Shown here: in pieces, positions 2,128 through 63,852 of the stretch
Layout: every line of letters starts with the position of its first letter
How positions within the stretch are numbered: position 1 is the first letter of the stretch
Source of the DNA: Escherichia coli
GTDB taxonomy: Bacteria > Pseudomonadota > Gammaproteobacteria > Enterobacterales > Enterobacteriaceae
Strand: one strand, 5' to 3'
Assembly (NCBI RefSeq): GCF_013315695.1
Contig: NZ_CP054353.1
Length of the DNA stretch: 64,000 nucleotides
The notes under the pieces: model-generated
What the model was told of the DNA's origin: nothing
Database searches by the model: none
What the model saw: only the letters and a program-made list of their open reading frames with translations
Program-made: the position numbers and the translations under genes

Positions 2128-2645
2128 AACTGAATCTCCACCTGAATACGTTAAAAAGACTTAAGTAGTGGAAGGGTATTACCCGCGAGAAAAAATAAGA
2201 ATTCGCCATTTGGCGGTGGCCATTCTACAGAGATGACGCGTAGAAAATAGTTACCGATATAAATAGTTACAGCTAAACGCCTGAAATTACATGTCGAGTG
2301 CACTATTTAAAACAATTTTGAGGATTTCCTTATATTGATGGTTAGTACGCATGCAATTAAAAATGAAACTCCGCGACCACAAGCAAAAATAACAAATGGC
2401 AATGAGACAAAAATAAGCACAAATAGCCAACACGTCCTCTGTTCACTTTAAAGGGAATCGCTGAAAAAAACGCTCTGTTTAGGGAAATTCACCTTTCTCA
2501 TAAAGCTATTCCGCCCTTTTCCTGCTGAGAAATCGCCACATTCGTCATGACAACATTGTGAAACCCGGCATTAGATGTTAGAAAAAACAAGGTGATGCTG
2601 CCAACTTACTGATTTAGTGTATGATGGTGTTTTTGAGGTGCTCCA

Positions 2646-2921
2646 GTGGCTTCTGTTTCTATCAGCTGTCCCTCCTGTTCAGCTACTGACGGGGTGGTGC
2701 GTAACGGCAAAAGCACCGCCGGACATCAGCGCTATCTCTGCTCTCACTGCCGTAAAACATGGCAACTGCAGTTCACTTACACCGCTTCTCAACCCGGTAC
2801 GCACCAGAAAATCATTGATATGGCCATGAATGGCGTTGGATGCCGGGCAACAGCCCGCATTATGGGCGTTGGCCTCAACACGATTTTACGTCACTTAAAA
2901 AACTCAGGCCGCAGTCGGTAA
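2646..2921 (+). CDS. insA: IS1 InsA
   Basis: 91-aa [25 protein letters not shown]… identical in all three IS1 copies. Confidence 0.9.
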
Positions 2922-3343
2922 CCTCGCGCATACAGCCGGGCAGTGACGTCATCGTCTGCGCGGAAATGGACGAACAGTGGGGCTATGTCGGGGCTAAATC
3001 GCGCCAGCGCTGGCTGTTTTACGCGTATGACAGGCTCCGGAAGACGGTTGTTGCGCACGTATTCGGTGAACGCACTATGGCGACGCTGGGGCGTCTTATG
3101 AGCCTGCTGTCACCCTTTGACGTGGTGATATGGATGACGGATGGCTGGCCGCTGTATGAATCCCGCCTGAAGGGAAAGCTGCACGTAATCAGCAAGCGAT
3201 ATACGCAGCGAATTGAGCGGCATAACCTGAATCTGAGGCAGCACCTGGCACGGCTGGGACGGAAGTCGCTGTCGTTCTCAAAATCGGTGGAGCTGCATGA
3301 CAAAGTCATCGGGCATTATCTGAACATAAAACACTATCAATAA
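2840..3343 (+). CDS. insB: IS1 InsB (expressed as InsAB' by -1 frameshift)
   Basis: 167-aa ORF overlapping insA in the -1 frame. Confidence 0.9.
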
Positions 3344-3423
3344 GTTGGAGTCATTACCAAAAAACAATAAACAATGCGATATGCGCGCTACTGTTTCGCT
3401 GTGAACAACAATCGGTCAAAGAA

Positions 3424-58659: not shown

Positions 58660-59655
58660 ATGCAGCCCAAAATTTACTGGATTGATAACCTGCGAGGGAT
58701 AGCGTGTTTAATGGTGGTGATGATTCACACCACTACCTGGTATGTGACCAATGCTCATAGTGTTAGCCCCGTCACATGGGATATCGCCAATGTTCTGAAT
58801 TCTGCCTCTCGTGTCAGCGTGCCGCTATTTTTCATGATTTCCGGCTATCTCTTTTTTGGCGAACGCAGCGCCCAGCCGCGCCATTTCTTGCGCATCGGCT
58901 TATGCCTGCTGTTTTATAGCACTGTTGCGCTGCTCTACATTGCGCTGTTTACCTCCATCAATATGGAGTTAGCGCTGAAAAACCTGCTGCAAAAGCCAGT
59001 GTTTTACCACTTGTGGTTTTTCTTCGCGATTGCGGTGATTTATCTGGTTTCACCGCTGATTCAGGTGAAGAACGTCGGCGGAAAAATGTTGCTGGTGCTA
59101 ATGGTGGTGATTGGCATTATCGCTAACCCAAACACAGTGCCGCAGAAAATTGACGGTTTTGAATGGCTGCCAATTAACTTATATATCAATGGCGATACTT
59201 TTTACTACATCCTGTATGGCATGTTGGGCCGCGCTATAGGGATGATGGACACACAGCATAAAGCACTGTCGTGGGTGTGCGCCGCACTGTTTGCGACGGG
59301 GGTATTTATTATCTCTCGCGGGACATTATATGAATTGCAGTGGCGCGGAAATTTTGCCGATACCTGGTATCTTTACTGTGGGCCGATGGTTTTTATCTGC
59401 GCAATCACGCTATTGACTCTGGTTAAAAACACGCTGGATACACACACTGTTCCCGGGCTTGGGCTGATATCACGCCATTCTTTAGGTATATACGGGTTCC
59501 ATGCATTGATTATCCATGCGCTGCGTACCCGGGGGATTGAGCTTAAAAACTGGCCAATACTCGATATTATTTGGATCTTTTGCGCGACGTTGGCAGCGAG
59601 TTTGTTACTTTCTATGCTGGTACAACGAATCGACAGAAACAGACTAGTGAGTTAA
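58660..59655 (+). CDS. wecH: Membrane O-acetyltransferase (acyltransferase 3 family)
   Basis: 331-aa multi-TM ORF; synteny. Confidence 0.85.
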
Positions 59656-59656
59656 A

Positions 59657-59692
59657 TAAAAGCCCGGTCACATTGGACTGACCGGGCTTATG
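59657..59692. terminator. Bidirectional hairpin terminator between wecH and yiaA
   Basis: AAGCCCGGTCA…TGACCGGGCTT. Confidence 0.6.
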
Positions 59693-59696
59693 TGAA

Positions 59697-60137
59697 TTAT
59701 TCGCTGTATTCTTCCTGGGTAACCTGTGTTTCTTTTGGTGGGTTTATTCCGACATCACGAATATTCTTCTGCACCGCTACTGCACCAAACAAGCTTAAGA
59801 AGAAAGCCAGCCCATAAAAGCCTTTTTCGCTGAGTAATAACGTTGCATTCCACAGACCTACCAGCAATAACGCAACAGAGATAATAAAGACCGTCAGGCA
59901 AGTCATATAATAAATGGAGGTGGTCGGTATGCCTTCATACTTGTCCCGAACGGTCTTTTGATAAGACGCCGCAGAAAACAGTCCTAATACCAGTACGGCA
60001 AAATAATATCCTTTTTCATTTAACTGCATCTCTGCATTCCATAGCCCTAACAGATAGGTAACGATACCACCAACGAGAGCTATCCATGACACAATACTAA
60101 ATGCCGGTGAATAGGTTGATATTTTGTTGTCCATCAC
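59697..60137 (-). CDS. yiaA: Inner-membrane protein YiaA
   Basis: 146-aa ORF with 4 predicted TM helices. Confidence 0.8.
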
Positions 60138-60179
60138 AGTATTCCTTTCATTCCTGAATGTGTAAGAGGTTTATGTTGC

Positions 60180-60487
60180 TCATGCCGGGCGAAACAAACG
60201 CATTTGACCAAACAAGCAGACAAAAAAGGCGATGGGATAAATCACCATTTCATAAGCATTGATAGGTGCGTTTAAAACACCGATAAACAAGAGACCGATA
60301 GTGATTAACGCCAGCAACTGGCAGACGCGGATAAAAAAATCATCCAGTTGCCCGAGTTTTTCTGCGCGAAGATATGCATAATTGCCAAAAGTTGCTGTCA
60401 TTAACACGCCAAGAAAATAGCCTTTTCCACTTAACAATGGGCATGAGATCCATAGCCCAACCAGATAAACCAGCGCCCCGACAACAA
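60180..60487 (-). pseudogene. yiaB: yiaB lacking its 5' end and promoter (reading frame runs into IS1)
   Basis: ORF 60180..60437 (paralog-like to yiaA); frame open up to the IS1 boundary with no native start. Confidence 0.7.
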
Positions 60488-60502
60488 GGTAATGACTCCA
60501 AC

Positions 60503-61006
60503 TTATTGATAGTGTTTTATGTTCAGATAATGCCCGATGACTTTGTCATGCAGCTCCACCGATTTTGAGAACGACAGCGACTTCCGTCCCAGCCGTGCCA
60601 GGTGCTGCCTCAGATTCAGGTTATGCCGCTCAATTCGCTGCGTATATCGCTTGCTGATTACGTGCAGCTTTCCCTTCAGGCGGGATTCATACAGCGGCCA
60701 GCCATCCGTCATCCATATCACCACGTCAAAGGGTGACAGCAGGCTCATAAGACGCCCCAGCGTCGCCATAGTGCGTTCACCGAATACGTGCGCAACAACC
60801 GTCTTCCGGAGCCTGTCATACGCGTAAAACAGCCAGCGCTGGCGCGATTTAGCCCCGACATAGCCCCACTGTTCGTCCATTTCCGCGCAGACGATGACGT
60901 CACTGCCCGGCTGTATGCGCGAGGTTACCGACTGCGGCCTGAGTTTTTTAAGTGACGTAAAATCGTGTTGAGGCCAACGCCCATAATGCGGGCTGTTGCC
61001 CGGCAT
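60503..61006 (-). CDS. insB: IS1 InsB
   Basis: Identical 167-aa ORF. Confidence 0.9.
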
Positions 61007-61200
61007 CCAACGCCATTCATGGCCATATCAATGATTTTCTGGTGCGTACCGGGTTGAGAAGCGGTGTAAGTGAACTGCAGTTGCCATGTTTTACGGCAGT
61101 GAGAGCAGAGATAGCGCTGATGTCCGGCGGTGCTTTTGCCGTTACGCACCACCCCGTCAGTAGCTGAACAGGAGGGACAGCTGATAGAAACAGAAGCCAC
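60925..61200 (-). CDS. insA: IS1 InsA
   Basis: Identical 91-aa ORF. Confidence 0.9.
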
Positions 61201-61255
61201 TGGAGCACCTCAAAAACACCATCATACACTAAATCAGTAAGTTGGCAGCATCACC

Positions 61256-61822
61256 AGTTTATCCATTTCACCTGATACCCGCGTTGGCGATTTAGGACTT
61301 GGGCAACAACAACTGGTTGAAATTGCCAAGGCACTTAATAAACAGGTGCGTTTGTTAATTCTCGATGAGCCGACAGCCTCATTAACTGAGCAGGAAACGT
61401 CGGTTTTACTGGATATTATTCGCGATCTACAACAGCACGGTATCGCCTGTATTTATATTTCGCACAAACTCAACGAAGTCAAAGCGATTTCCGATACGAT
61501 TTGCGTTATTCGCGACGGTCAGCACATTGGCACGCGTGATGCTGCTGGAATGAGTGAAGACGATATTATCACCATGATGGTCGGGCGGGAGTTAACCGCG
61601 CTTTACCCTAATGAACCACATACCACCGGAGATGAAATATTACGTATTGAACATCTGACGGCATGGCATCCGGTTAATCGTCATATTAAACGAGTTAATG
61701 ATGTCTCGTTTTCCCTGAAACGTGGCGAAATACTGGGTATTGCCGGACTCGTTGGTGCCGGACGTACCGAGACCATTCAGTGCCTGTTTGGCGTGTGGCC
61801 CGGACAATGGGAAGGAAAAATT
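61256..61822 (+). pseudogene. xylG: Internal fragment of xylose ABC transporter ATPase (5' end deleted at IS1, 3' side interrupted by IS110-family element)
   Basis: Frame reads [43 protein letters not shown]… from the IS1 boundary; ABC signature and Walker B. Confidence 0.8.
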
Positions 61823-63267
61823 CTTATGACCTTTGTCAAATATTGAGCCCAAAAAGACCTTACGCAGCTCCGGGAGCTTCGTTATATCGCGGATTAAAGA
61901 ACCTGAAACAGTCAGACTGTATCTTGGATTTTACAAACTCTTATTCGGGGATTTTAGCCCCATGACGATTTACGCAGTGAGCTGGCCTCTTTCTATATGC
62001 AGGTATTGGCGCATTCTGACCTCCTGAATTCTTTTACGAGGATCACTCATTCCGTGTCTGACTGCTTCAGGGTTTAATTTTGCTTCTGCTGACTGAATGA
62101 TGATTGGGCAGCAAGTGCAATATCCCACATAAATCCAGTCAACTCACGAGCCACCGCCGTAATGGCTACTTGTGATTTTTTCCCTTTTGCTGTCAGACTT
62201 CGGTAACGAGAACACAATCGTTGTTGAGCTTTCCATGCAATATCTTTGGAATATTGTGTTACAGAATCCGGTCGGTAATATATAAGCCATGCACCAACTT
62301 TTGCAGGTGTACGATAAGACCAGGCGGCTTCGTAAAGCAGACGTCTCAGTTCGCTGTTTCCAACTTTTGTTATTCCCCTGGGACGAATGCTGTTTCCACT
62401 GGAATATTCCCCTGGAACCAGTCCCAGAAAAGCCATGAGTTGTTTGGGACTGGAAAATCGTGAAAAATCACCCAGTTCAGCAACCAGGGTTATTGCGGTT
62501 AGCTGACCAACACCTTTAAGGGCCTGTAACTGGCAGACCAGATTGCACAGAGACCACTCAGGTAACAGGCGGGATATTTCCTGGTCGAGTTGAAGTATGC
62601 GATCTTCAATCTGCTCCAGACTCTGACAATAGTGTTGAAAAGCAATCTGTTGAGATGGCTGACTAAATGATTGATTGGCTAACCAGGTTCGATGTTTGCC
62701 GGTCCAGTGCTTCCCTGCATAACGTTTGTCTGTTCGCAATAGCATGCTCAGAATTCGCTGTCGGGCAACTCTGCTGTCTCGTTTAGCTGCTGCACGGGCT
62801 CTGATTAGATCCCGCATAGCTTCATGAGTCAGGTCAGGGATCCAGACAGGGGTAAGTTCACCAGCCCGCAGTAACCTGGCAAGAGAAATTGCGTCCCGAT
62901 GATCATTTTTGATTCTGTCTGTCGGTGATTTTGGTATCCGGGAAGGGGCAATAACCTGGCATTTTATATTCATCGCTGTGAGTTGATGATATAGCCCAAA
63001 ACCACAGGGGCCAGCCTCATAGCAGGAAAGAATGTTTCCGTAAAGTCCCTGCAATTTCTGAAATAATCGACGTACAGCCTGGGCTTCGTTGTTAATCGTA
63101 CCATAATAACGAACTTCGCCAAGCCGTTCAGGTGCAGCAATAGCAACCGCCAACGTTTCTTTATGTACATCCAGTCCGATGTAAGCTGCAATATTTTCCG
63201 AATGCATAATGACCTCCTCTGGAATATCCCACCAATGCTATAGTGAGTATATAAAGGTCATACCATC
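61823..63267 (-). mobile_element. IS110-family insertion sequence, about 1.45 kb, inside xylG; 10-bp terminal inverted repeats TATGACCTTT (61825-61834 and 63253-63262)
   Basis: xylG frame breaks after …WEGKI and resumes at YIDGKQ…; the insert carries one DEDD-type transposase gene and a 251-bp non-coding end. Confidence 0.8.
62074..63207 (-). CDS. IS110-family (DEDD) transposase
   Basis: 377-aa ORF; N-terminal YIGLDVHKETLAVAI motif and C-terminal domain typical of IS110/IS1111 transposases. Confidence 0.8.
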   Translation of the reverse strand: MHSENIAAYIGLDVHKETLAVAIAAPERLGEVRYYGTINNEAQAVRRLFQKLQGLYGNILSCYEAGPCGFGLYHQLTAMNIKCQVIAPSRIPKSPTDRIKNDHRDAISLARLLRAGELTPVWIPDLTHEAMRDLIRARAAAKRDSRVARQRILSMLLRTDKRYAGKHWTGKHRTWLANQSFSQPSQQIAFQHYCQSLEQIEDRILQLDQEISRLLPEWSLCNLVCQLQALKGVGQLTAITLVAELGDFSRFSSPKQLMAFLGLVPGEYSSGNSIRPRGITKVGNSELRRLLYEAAWSYRTPAKVGAWLIYYRPDSVTQYSKDIAWKAQQRLCSRYRSLTAKGKKSQVAITAVARELTGFMWDIALAAQSSFSQQKQN

Positions 63268-63852
63268 TATATTGATGGCAAACAGGTAGATATTCGTAAC
63301 TGTCAGCAAGCCATCGCCCAGGGGATTGCGATGGTACCCGAAGACAGAAAGCGCGACGGCATCGTTCCGGTAATGGCGGTTGGTAAAAATATTACCCTCG
63401 CCGCACTCAATAAATTTACCGGCGGTATTAGCCAGCTTGATGACGCGGCAGAGCAAAAATGTATTCTGGAATCAATCCAGCAACTCAAAGTTAAAACGTC
63501 GTCCCCCGACCTTGCTATTGGACGTTTGAGCGGCGGCAATCAGCAAAAAGCGATCCTCGCTCGCTGTCTGTTACTCAACCCGCGCATTCTCATTCTTGAT
63601 GAACCTACCAGGGGTATCGATATTGGCGCGAAATACGAGATCTACAAATTAATTAACCAACTCGTCCAGCAGGGTATTGCCGTTATTGTCATCTCTTCCG
63701 AATTACCTGAAGTGCTCGGCCTTAGCGATCGTGTACTGGTGATGCATGAAGGGAAACTAAAAGCCAACCTGATAAATCATAACCTGACTCAGGAGCAGGT
63801 GATGGAAGCCGCATTGAGGAGCGAACATCATGTCGAAAAGCAATCCGTCTGA
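63268..63852 (+). pseudogene. xylG: 3' fragment of xylG
   Basis: Frame [31 protein letters not shown]… through second ABC domain to stop. Confidence 0.8.

What the first reader, a model, noticed from the sequence alone, without database searches (positions are those of the whole stretch)
61823..63267. IS110-family element inserted in the xylG remnant, with a 251-bp non-coding end that may encode a guide-type ncRNA
A 1445-bp insert interrupts xylG between …WEGKI and YIDGKQ…. It has 10-bp terminal inverted repeats TATGACCTTT and no obvious target duplication. It carries a single 377-aa DEDD (IS110-family) transposase gene, with only 60 bp of flank upstream but 251 bp of non-coding sequence downstream of the gene (61823-62073). 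Some IS110-family members are known to carry a structured non-coding RNA in a flank that guides target and donor recognition; this layout is that of the IS1111-like subgroup, where the long flank is 3' of the gene. The element is not part of the standard K-12 IS repertoire.
Basis: partly seen in the sequence, partly recalled or inferred. Interest (0 to 1): 0.55.

Follow-up and report, generated by a model that had tools for sequence, protein, structure and literature searches.

The report
ISEc45 insertion with its bridge RNA

Summary
Confirmed. Window 61823-63267 is a 1445-bp insert in xylG. It is 100% identical to E. coli copies that RefSeq labels "IS110-like element ISEc45". It carries one intact 377-aa DEDD transposase gene (62074-63207, minus strand), 10-bp subterminal inverted repeats, 60 nt upstream and 251 nt downstream. 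A published supplement already lists ISEc45 as IS1111-group with a bridge RNA predicted in the right end.

I mapped that RNA to about 165 nt at 61904-62068 (minus strand). Its fold is supported by compensatory changes in 18 relatives from several phyla. A covariance model finds it once in the window and downstream of 13 further relatives.

The first internal loop carries two guides. UAAAAGAAUU pairs with the top strand right of the insertion point. CAUAUAG matches the top strand on the left. Both change together with the flanks in relatives and in ISEc45 variants. The second loop carries AUAAGAG, identical to the element's right end.

The natural target is the GRKN[WYF]LF codons of IS66-family transposase genes; xylG is a look-alike site, hit twice independently.

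RNA expression, circle formation and activity are inferred, not shown. One junction detail (one nucleotide fewer than expected in xylG) is unexplained. Known kind, low-to-moderate interest.

The parts
61823..63267 (-). ISEc45 copy (IS110 family, IS1111 group), 1445 bp as inserted in xylG. In canonical targets the unit is a 1444-bp body (61823-63266 here) plus a CT/AG core dinucleotide at each junction.
   Evidence: 100% identity over 1445 bp to copies annotated as ISEc45. Joined flanks equal intact xylG. Junction comparison across copies and relatives.
62074..63207 (-). Transposase/recombinase gene, 377 aa, intact. DEDD (RuvC-like) N-terminal domain, C-terminal domain with the GLVPGEYSSG motif.
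   Evidence: ORF list. Pfam PF01548 + PF02371. NCBIfam NF033542 at 279.9 bits. D13, E64, D102, D105, S269, S270 and G271 invariant or nearly so in 20 homologues. 4 aa differences from ISfinder ISEc45.
63208..63267 (-). Left end (60 nt). GATGG extension at 63263-63267, subterminal repeat TATGACCTTT at 63253-63262, GGAGG ribosome-binding site at 63213-63217. TGgTATGAC would serve as an extended -10 once the ends are joined.
   Evidence: Sequence. Ends conserved in relatives.
61823..62073 (-). Right-end non-coding region (251 nt) that holds the bridge/seek RNA gene.
61904..62068 (-). Core of the bridge (seek) RNA, about 165 nt. A long closing stem P1 (62056-62070 with 61903-61917) encloses a target-binding arm and a donor-binding arm.
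   Evidence: Covariance-model hit of 114.2 bits, E 1.5e-26, the only hit in the 64-kb window. Consensus fold and pair counts. The single-sequence MFE reproduces the same helices.
62027..62036 (-). Right-target guide, UAAAAGAAUU, on the 5' side of the first internal loop. [quoted passage not shown]
   Evidence: Pairing table. Natural variants and their sites.
62000..62026 (-). Inner hairpin P4 of the target-binding loop.
   Evidence: 4 of 5 pairs show compensatory changes.
61993..61999 (-). Left-target guide, CAUAUAG, on the 3' side of the first loop. It is identical to the top strand of left target + core, so it pairs with the bottom strand (xylG junction ATATAG).
   Evidence: The ISEc45 variant class has CACGUAG and sits at CACGTA|G. 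L032 and L046 have GGUAG and sit at GGTAG.
61986..62041 (-). Stem P3 (CCUC at 62038-62041 with GAGG at 61986-61989) that closes the target-binding loop. It is stacked on P2 (62046-62051 with 61976-61981).
   Evidence: P3 is invariant in 18 sequences. P2 has 4 of 5 pairs with compensatory changes.
61934..61975 (-). Donor-binding arm. 5' strand GCGUAAAUCGUCAU (61962-61975), hairpin P5 GGGGCUAAAAUCCCC (61947-61961), 3' strand AAUAAGAGUUUG (61934-61945). AUAAGAG in the 3' strand equals the element's right end plus core.
   Evidence: Alignment. This segment changes to AUGAGAG where the end is CATGAG (L035, L046) and to AUAUCAG where the end is CCATATC-AG (L038, L040).
61866..61878 (-). Small hairpin AGCUCCCGGAGCU 3' of the RNA core. 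Relatives have a hairpin of different sequence at the same place. It may mark the 3' end or stabilise the RNA.
   Evidence: Seen in the alignment. Not tested further. The terminator scan did not call it.
61825..61839 (-). Right subterminal repeat AAAGGTCATA (61825-61834) overlapping a perfect TTGACA -35 box (61834-61839). The box faces outward across the end.
   Evidence: TTGACA-like box conserved in relatives.
61810..61822 (+). xylG half-site GGAAGGAAAAATT (the right target in gene orientation), which resembles GGAAAGAAAAACT of IS66 tnpC genes.
   Evidence: Hits H117-H124 extend 13-14 nt into this flank.
63268..63276 (+). xylG half-site TATATTGAT (the left target in gene orientation).

Best explanation
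This is an intact copy of ISEc45, an IS110-family (IS1111-group) insertion sequence. It consists of one DEDD/serine recombinase gene followed by a gene for a bridge (seek) RNA of about 165 nt in the right end.

Inferred mechanism, by analogy with ISEc11 and IS621:
1. The element leaves as, or is copied into, a circle in which the two ends abut around one AG core.
2. Joining the ends places the TTGACA at the right end 17 bp from TGgTATGAC at the left end. This creates the only good promoter.
3. That promoter transcribes the recombinase gene and, downstream of it, the RNA.
4. The RNA folds into a closing stem with two arms.
5. [quoted passage not shown]
6. [quoted passage not shown]
7. The recombinase bound to this RNA then exchanges strands at the core.

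The preferred target is the stretch of IS66-family transposase genes that encodes GRKN[W/Y/F]LF. The xylG site (GGAAGGAAAAATT|TATATT) resembles it and fits both guides, so xylG was hit as a secondary site.

Shown here: identity, anatomy, conserved RNA structure, guide-target and guide-donor covariation, site specificity. Inferred: RNA expression and processing, circle formation, the chemistry, and whether this copy is active.
For: Identity:
- 100% identical to annotated ISEc45 copies. 586 of 5426 complete E. coli genomes hold a copy covering at least 80% of the query.
- Pfam and NCBIfam assignments.
- 4/377 aa differences from ISfinder ISEc45.
- Published listing 'ISEc45 RE IS1111'.

Site specificity:
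- All 12 non-xylG copies fetched sit in IS66-family tnpC genes at the same codons.
- 11 relatives at 56-72% aa identity from Vibrio, Rhizobiales, Sphingomonadales and Planctomycetes sit at ...CAGCC-AG|...|AG-TTCTTGC.
- Removing the element in silico restores in-frame IS66 transposases, 410 and 404 bits against a cut-off of 180.
- A different ISEc45 variant occupies exactly the same xylG position in a strain with a different xylG allele and no IS1, which makes it an independent hit.

RNA structure:
- 90.8% of cells paired, against 33-51% when partners are slid.
- 19 of 33 pairs have compensatory changes, against 5-10 when slid.
- Covariation score 0.412 against 0.05-0.11, with 0/500 shuffles as high.
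- Many conserved G-U pairs fix the strand as that of the transposase gene.
- The covariance model finds one hit in the window and hits downstream of the gene in 13 relatives not used to build it, down to 47% aa identity.

Guides:
- 13 of 18 loci show at least 7 consecutive pairs between the 5' loop strand and core + right target.
- The 3' loop strand is identical to left target + core at 6-7 of 8 positions.
- Matched changes: L018 against L016/17 (A against G opposite T against C); L033 (CACU with AGTG); L032 and L046 (GGUAG with GGTAG); ISEc45 variants (CAUAUAG against CACGUAG with their sites).
- 7 of the 9 differences between ISEc45 variants in the non-coding end fall in the target loop.
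- Donor guide changes with the element end in L035, L046, L038 and L040.

Promoter:
- No sigma-70-like site in the integrated copy.
- The predicted junction gives TTGACA-17 bp-TGgTATGAC, and the arrangement is conserved in relatives.

Precedent: experiments on ISEc11, ISPa11, ISKpn4 and ISEc21 (PMC11187229) and on IS621 (PMC11208160).
Against: - No expression data: nothing here shows that the RNA is made, where it starts and ends, or that it binds the protein.
- No segment convincingly complementary to the left end (a right-donor guide) was found. The variable fourth base of the left end (G/A/C) has no covarying RNA position.
- The stem that closes the donor loop in alpha-proteobacterial relatives (CGACG/CGUCG) is not formed in ISEc45, Vibrio or Nitrosomonas.
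- Several relatives sit in sites with one or two guide mismatches, so pairing is not strict.
- In xylG and in one IS66 type the net insert is 1445 bp, not 1446 bp. The simple two-nucleotide-core model does not predict this.
- Rfam has no family that matches.
- The transposase is 377 aa, longer than the 330-350 aa quoted for typical IS1111-group proteins.
Confidence: 0.88

Rival explanations
1. The conserved 3' non-coding region is a protein-binding DNA end (a recombinase recognition site plus subterminal repeat), and target choice is made by the protein alone. The apparent RNA structure would be a by-product.
For: The subterminal repeats and end sequences are strongly conserved. No clear guide for the left end was found.
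Against: Compensatory base changes that keep helices, including G-U pairs valid on one strand only, are not expected of a DNA-binding site. Loop segments change in step with the flanks while the protein stays over 95% identical. Relatives in the same group need the RNA experimentally (PMC11187229).
Confidence: 0.04
2. The structured RNA is a 3'-UTR or regulatory element that controls stability or translation of the transposase mRNA or terminates it. It is not a guide.
For: It lies directly after the stop codon on the same strand, and no promoter of its own was found. A small hairpin follows it (61866-61878).
Against: A regulatory UTR would not be expected to carry segments identical or complementary to the insertion site and to the element's own end, nor would those segments covary with them.
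Confidence: 0.04
3. The copy is a fixed, inactive relic. It has the right anatomy but no longer moves in this genome.
For: No promoter is detectable upstream in the integrated state, and the gene is antisense to xylG. Only 4 of 5426 genomes share this junction. The flanking core at the left junction (window + strand TT) differs from the donor core CT.
Against: The ORF, ends and RNA are intact and 100% identical to copies at other sites in other strains, which points to recent mobility of this sequence type. Dependence on a junction promoter is normal for the family. This rival concerns activity, not identity, and is compatible with the main explanation.
Confidence: 0.25

Closest known systems
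ISEc45 (ISfinder entry; IS110 family, IS1111 group)
   Same: This is the same element. The DNA is 100% identical to copies that RefSeq labels ISEc45. The protein differs from the ISfinder sequence at 4 of 377 residues. The bridge RNA was already predicted in the right end.
   Different: Nothing essential. This copy sits in xylG rather than in an IS66-family transposase gene, and its net length there is 1445 bp rather than 1446 bp.
ISEc11, ISPa11 and ISKpn4 with their seekRNAs (Siddiquee et al. 2024, PMC11187229)
   Same: Subterminal inverted repeats and a long non-coding region 3' of the gene. The RNA has a top-strand match lying 5' of a bottom-strand match, and the two matches overlap at the insertion point. 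The promoter is formed only by joining the ends. There is no classical target duplication.
   Different: The protein is only distantly related (35% identity over 128 aa to ISEc11) and longer (377 against 339 aa). The terminal extensions are 5 and 2-3 nt rather than 7 and 3. The target is different (IS66 tnpC codons). The RNA has not been tested for ISEc45.
IS621 bridge RNA system (Durrant et al. 2024, PMC11208160; Hiraizumi et al. 2024)
   Same: A DEDD + Ser recombinase. An RNA with one target-binding and one donor-binding internal loop. Each loop reads both strands, and the two reads overlap at a core dinucleotide. Here the dinucleotide reads CT on the strand opposite the transposase gene and AG in gene orientation.
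   Different: The RNA lies in the right end, not the left. The order of the guides within the loop is reversed, with the top-strand guide first. The repeats flanking the donor are long. A right-donor guide is not evident.
ISEc21, which targets the DDE codons of IS3-family transposase genes (PMC11187229)
   Same: An RNA-guided IS whose natural target is a conserved catalytic or structural motif inside another IS family's transposase gene.
   Different: ISEc21 belongs to the IS110 group with the RNA upstream. ISEc45 and its relatives belong to the IS1111 group and target IS66 tnpC (GRKN[WYF]LF).
IS1533 (Leptospira; IS1111 group)
   Same: It is the closest of the reference transposases compared (31% identity over 341 aa, E 8e-48), with the same VG-DVHKET N-terminus.
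   Different: Only distantly related. Its ends and RNA were not compared here.

Membership tests
IS110 family (DEDD transposases) | Single transposase with an N-terminal DEDD/RuvC-like domain (PF01548) and a C-terminal PF02371 domain | tested here: met
   PF01548 E 3.6e-15 and PF02371 E 1.6e-23. NF033542 at 279.9 bits against a cut-off of 140.
IS110 family (DEDD transposases) | Site-specific insertion without a classical multi-bp target duplication | tested here: met
   No duplication in xylG. The same site is used in IS66 genes, with only the core dinucleotide repeated.
IS1111 group | Subterminal inverted repeats of at least 7 bp with short terminal extensions | tested here: met
   10-bp TATGACCTTT / AAAGGTCATA, 5 nt and 2 nt from the ends. 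Conserved in relatives.
IS1111 group | The longer non-coding region lies downstream of the transposase gene | tested here: met
   251 nt downstream against 60 nt upstream.
IS1111 group | C-terminal GL-P----S(T)G motif | tested here: met
   GLVPGEYSSG at residues 262-271 (translation). G262, P265, S269, S270 and G271 invariant in 20 homologues.
IS1111 group | Transposase 330-350 aa and related over its full length to IS1111-type proteins | tested here: inconclusive
   377 aa, outside the quoted range. The best reference match is IS1533 at 31% over the full length. Matches to ISEc11, IS4321 and ISPa11 are partial. IS1111 itself was not compared. Durrant et al. file ISEc45 under IS1111.
Bridge RNA / seekRNA systems | A conserved structured RNA encoded in the long non-coding end | tested here: met
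   Consensus fold with 19 of 33 covarying pairs and clean controls. Covariance-model hits in unrelated hosts.
Bridge RNA / seekRNA systems | [quoted passage not shown] | tested here: met
   Pairing table. Matched changes in L018, L033, L032, L046 and the ISEc45 variants.
Bridge RNA / seekRNA systems | In IS1111-type elements the top-strand match lies 5' of the bottom-strand match | tested here: met
   The right-target guide (62027-62036) precedes the left-target guide (61993-61999) on the RNA. The rule is stated in PMC11187229.
Bridge RNA / seekRNA systems | A second loop complementary to the element's own ends (donor) | tested here: inconclusive
   The left-donor guide AUAAGAG matches the right end and covaries with it. 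No convincing guide for the left end was found.
Bridge RNA / seekRNA systems | The RNA is expressed, binds the recombinase and is required for circle formation and insertion | not testable with these tools
   Needs RNA-seq, co-purification and transposition assays.
Bridge RNA / seekRNA systems | A promoter assembled by joining the two ends | tested here: met
   In silico only. TTGACA-17 bp-TGgTATGAC across the predicted junction, conserved in relatives. No promoter in the integrated copy.
ISEc45 | Near-identity to the reference element | tested here: met
   100% DNA identity to RefSeq-labelled copies. 373/377 aa identical to the ISfinder protein given in PMC11187229 source data. The ISfinder DNA entry itself could not be queried.

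The most novel reading that the evidence does not exclude
ISEc45 and its relatives form a lineage of bridge-RNA elements that spans several phyla (Gamma-, Beta- and Alphaproteobacteria, Planctomycetes). In this lineage the guide loops stay fixed on the codons of the GRKN[W/Y/F]LF motif of IS66-family transposases, making an insertion sequence that specialises in disabling another IS family.

Rare look-alike hits such as xylG may also expose a rule not described in the papers I could search. The left and right half-sites would be read separately, and a one-nucleotide difference in their spacing would give a junction one nucleotide short.
Probability: 0.3. Interest if true: 0.45.

Novelty: already known. 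Interest (0 to 1): 0.3.

Why it matters
For genome annotation, this is a routine mobile element that has inactivated the xylose transporter gene xylG.

Its wider value is as a worked natural example of RNA-guided insertion:
- The guide segments can be read directly from the sequence.
- They explain why the element almost always lands inside IS66 transposase genes.
- They also explain why xylG, which happens to contain GGAAGGAAAAATT|TATAT, was hit twice independently.

The variants CAUAUAG and CACGUAG, each sitting in a matching site, show natural retargeting within one species.

None of this changes the known picture of bridge/seek RNAs. It adds a target assignment and a guide map for an element that had only a computational entry in a supplementary table.

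Tried and rejected
- Rfam scan of 61500-63600 at a permissive threshold gave no match. The library has no family for this RNA.
- An exact k-mer comparison of the non-coding end with the xylG site and the circle junction gave only chance-level 6-7-mers. The guides became visible only after relatives were aligned and G-U pairs allowed.
- I searched for a right-donor guide complementary to the left end (AG-ATGG-TATGACC). 'GUCAU' before hairpin P5 could pair with ATGAC of the left repeat, but it is equally identical to the right repeat. The distance is not conserved in L040, and the variable fourth base of the left end has no covarying RNA column. I left this open.
- A stem closing the donor loop (CGACG/CGUCG) holds in alpha-proteobacterial and planctomycete relatives but not in ISEc45, Vibrio or Nitrosomonas.
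- Models with a 1-nt core, with a 2-nt core, and with a slipped register were tried to explain 1445 against 1446 bp. The slip fits xylG but not the L001-type IS66 site. It remains unexplained.
- The sigma-70 scan of the integrated copy found no site. An internal promoter for the RNA is therefore not supported, though the scan is crude.
- The automatic consensus structure used for model R1 omitted helices P2 and P3.
- The idea that the window matches strain AF3 throughout was wrong. The window lacks the xylB-xylA-xylF-xylG' segment.
Full report
**1. What is in the sequence**

Window 61823-63267 interrupts xylG. Joining the 200 bp on each side gives a 400-bp sequence that is 100% identical to intact xylG in many E. 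coli genomes. The insert is therefore exactly 1445 bp, with nothing duplicated or lost by that measure.

It contains one long ORF, 62074-63207 on the minus strand, 377 aa. There are 60 nt between the element end and the ATG, and 251 nt after the stop codon.

The 10-bp inverted repeat TATGACCTTT / AAAGGTCATA is real. It lies 2 nt and 5 nt inside the ends, at 61825-61834 and 63253-63262, so it is subterminal rather than terminal. A 25-nt end probe and a covariance model each find a single copy in the window.

**2. Identity**

- The 1445 bp are 100% identical to copies in at least 13 listed complete E. coli genomes (H1-H13) that RefSeq annotates as 'IS110-like element ISEc45 family transposase'.
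- 1466 of 5426 genomes have some match and 586 have a place covering at least 80% of the query. The median is one place per genome and the maximum eight.
- The protein has Pfam DEDD_Tnp_IS110 and Transposase_20. It scores 279.9 bits on NCBIfam NF033542, 'IS110 family RNA-guided transposase', against a cut-off of 140.
- It differs from the ISfinder ISEc45 protein, reproduced in the source data of PMC11187229, at 4 of 377 residues.
- Among reference transposases it is closest to IS1533, an IS1111-group element (31% over 341 aa, E 8e-48). It is only distantly related to ISEc11, IS4321, IS621, IS110 and ISEc21.
- The supplementary table of Durrant et al. 2024 (PMC11208160) lists 'ISEc45 / RE / IS1111', meaning IS1111 group with a bridge RNA predicted in the right end.

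The element and the general idea are therefore already on record.

**3. Target**

Every other copy I fetched (L001-L006, L009-L014) lies inside an IS66-family tnpC gene (ISEc22, ISEc23, ISEc43 and others), at the same codons. Coordinates below are in gene orientation.

- An uninterrupted ISEc23 reads GAACATAA-AG-TTTTTC.
- The occupied site reads GAACATAA-AG-ATGGTATGACC...GGTCATAAG-AG-TTTTTC.

A scan of one genome per species with a profile of the transposase returned 37 loci. Relatives at 56-72% aa identity from Vibrio, Nitrosomonas, Rhizobium, Sphingomonadales, Rhodobacteraceae and Planctomycetes have the same ends (GATGn-TATGACC ... GGTCATA-AGA). They sit at ...CAGCC-AG | AG-TTCTTGC....

Removing the element in silico, keeping one AG, restores ...GRKNWLF(A/S)G... 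in frame. The restored proteins score 410 and 404 bits on the IS66 transposase model, against a cut-off of 180.

The clade's natural target is thus the GRKN[W/Y/F]LF codons of IS66 transposase genes. An AG core (CT on the window + strand) is present at both junctions. One relative (L023) sits in an IS6-family gene at the look-alike GGRKHWLW.

The xylG site GGAAGGAAAAATT|TATATT is another look-alike. The junction occurs in 4 of 5426 genomes. One of them, FDAARGOS_1249, differs in four ways:
- It carries a different ISEc45 variant: about 26 substitutions, two indels and a different left-target guide.
- The variant sits at exactly the same position.
- The xylG allele differs at 12 of 850 flanking positions.
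- There is no IS1 in xylG.

This is an independent insertion at the same site.

**4. The RNA**

An alignment of the right-end non-coding regions of 18 elements shows blocks conserved from E. coli to Planctomycetes.

The consensus fold and a count on the named structure give these helices:
- a long closing stem P1;
- helices P2 and P3 (CCUC/GAGG) leading to an internal loop with an inner hairpin P4;
- a second arm with hairpin P5 (GGGG/CCCC).

| Measure | Named structure | Partners slid by 1-3 columns |
|---|---|---|
| Cells paired | 90.8% | 33-51% |
| Pairs with changes on both sides | 19 of 33 | 5-10 |
| Covariation score | 0.412 | 0.05-0.11 |

No shuffle out of 500 reached the observed covariation score. 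Conserved G-U pairs (for example 152/170 in all 18 sequences) fix the strand as that of the transposase gene.

In ISEc45 alone, the 168-nt core folds into the same helices (-50.6 kcal/mol). The 281-nt region has a z-score of -2.4.

A covariance model built from the core finds one hit in the 64-kb window: 61904-62068, minus strand, 114 bits, E 1.5e-26. It also hits downstream of the gene in 13 relatives that were not used to build it, down to 47% protein identity (Halanaerobium, a spirochaete, Deltaproteobacteria). Rfam has no matching family.

**5. Guides**

*Right-target guide.* The 5' strand of the first loop is UAAAAGAAUU in ISEc45 (62027-62036) and GCAAGAAUU in most relatives. [quoted passage not shown] 13 of 18 loci show at least seven consecutive pairs.

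*Left-target guide.* The 3' strand is CAUAUAG in ISEc45 (61993-61999) and CAGCCAG in most relatives. It is identical to the top strand of left target + core, so it pairs with the bottom strand. The two reads overlap at the core, as described for IS621. The top-strand guide comes first, as described for IS1111-type seekRNAs.

*Matched changes between guide and site:*

| Locus | Guide | Site |
|---|---|---|
| Vibrio L018 | AAAAAUU | AGTTTTT |
| Sisters L016/17 | AAGAAUU | AGTTCTT |
| L033 | ACACU | AGTGT |
| L032, L046 | GGUAG | GGTAG |
| Second ISEc45 class (CFT073 and others) | CACGUAG | CACGTA\|G |
| Window class | CAUAUAG | CATAA\|AG, GAGAT\|AG, and ATAT\|AG in xylG |

Seven of the nine differences between the two ISEc45 classes in the non-coding end fall inside the target loop.

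*Donor guide.* In the second arm, AUAAGAG (within 61934-61945) equals the right end plus core. It becomes AUGAGAG where the end is CATGAG (L035, L046), and AUAUCAG where the end is CCATATC-AG (L038, L040).

I could not find a convincing guide for the left end. The stem that closes the donor loop in other relatives is absent in ISEc45.

**6. Expression**

The integrated copy has no sigma-70-like promoter, and the gene runs antisense to xylG. Joining the ends around one AG gives TTGACA (61834-61839), 17 bp, then TGgTATGAC from the left end. The arrangement is conserved in relatives. This is the junction promoter known for ISEc11, ISEc21 and IS621.

That the RNA is processed from this read-through transcript is an inference from PMC11187229.

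**7. Mechanism**

See the best explanation.

Shown here:
- identity and anatomy;
- conserved RNA structure;
- guide-target and guide-donor covariation;
- repeated site-specific insertion.

Inferred:
- the circle intermediate;
- RNA expression and processing;
- strand exchange at the core;
- activity of this copy.

The mechanism of integration in the family is itself still debated. A 2025 preprint argues for copy-out and top-strand insertion.

**8. Unexplained**

In the ISEc23 site, checked against an uninterrupted copy, the net insert is 1446 bp: a 1444-bp body plus two core dinucleotides, less the one in the target. Reading-frame restoration implies the same for the ISEc22-type, CFT073-type and L013-type sites and for the relatives.

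In xylG the uninterrupted sequence is CAATAT-AAA-TTTTTCC. In the L001-type IS66 gene it is GAAGAGAT-AAT-TTTTTC, verified on an uninterrupted copy. In both, the net insert is 1445 bp.

The xylG case recurs in the independent FDAARGOS_1249 insertion, so it is systematic. A one-nucleotide slip between the registers of the left and right guides fits xylG but not L001. One copy (L005) has C instead of A at the extra position.

**9. Verdict**

The element is catalogued, annotated by the standard pipeline as an RNA-guided transposase, and listed with a predicted right-end bridge RNA.

What I add:
- the RNA's coordinates and fold;
- the guide map;
- the IS66-motif target, shared across phyla;
- the explanation of why xylG was hit.

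No paper in the searchable library combines IS66 with bridge RNA or seekRNA, but ISfinder itself could not be consulted.

Noticed in passing
window 60488-61255, with 58800-60487 upstream: An IS1 copy joins yiaB directly to xylG nucleotide 390. In E. coli AF3, two IS1A copies flank yiaB'-xylB-xylA-xylF-xylG'. In the window that segment of about 5.7 kb is missing, which looks like a deletion between the two IS1 copies. The strain should be unable to use xylose.
   Followed up: partly
window 2591-3358 and 27050-27817: Two more full-length IS1 copies, found by their terminal repeats, making three in the 64-kb window.
   Followed up: no
window 61821-61822 and 63267-63268; L001, L005, L007, L008, L052: Junction arithmetic. 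The net insert is 1446 bp in the usual IS66 sites but 1445 bp in xylG and in one IS66 type, although the same ends are used. One copy (L005) has a different base at the extra position.
   Followed up: partly
L054 (E. coli FDAARGOS_1249, NZ_CP069459.1 2628825-2632302): A different ISEc45 variant sits at exactly the same xylG position. The strain has another xylG allele and no IS1 in xylG, so this is an independent insertion at the same look-alike site.
   Followed up: yes
L023 (Rhizobium sp. ASV20): A relative of ISEc45 sits in an IS6-family transposase gene at codons GGRKHWLW, a look-alike of the IS66 GRKNWLF site. It has one mismatch to its right-target guide.
   Followed up: partly
L038, L039, L040, L041 (Deltaproteobacteria, Halanaerobium, a spirochaete): Distant relatives (47-50% aa identity) keep the RNA fold but have different ends (14-bp repeat ATGGCTGACAGTTG, end ...CCATATC-AG) and different guides. 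The L040 target (CCCCT-AG-TTTTCTTGG) is not an IS66 motif.
   Followed up: partly
L015 (MAG labelled Collinsella sp., JAIJJM010000012.1): A contig assigned to an actinobacterial gut MAG carries a transposase 100% identical to E. coli ISEc45 at the contig end. This more likely reflects a binning or assembly artefact than genuine presence in Collinsella.
   Followed up: no
window 61866-61878 (minus strand): A small hairpin, AGCUCCCGGAGCU, lies 3' of the RNA core. Relatives have a hairpin of unrelated sequence at the same place. It may define or protect the 3' end of the RNA.
   Followed up: no
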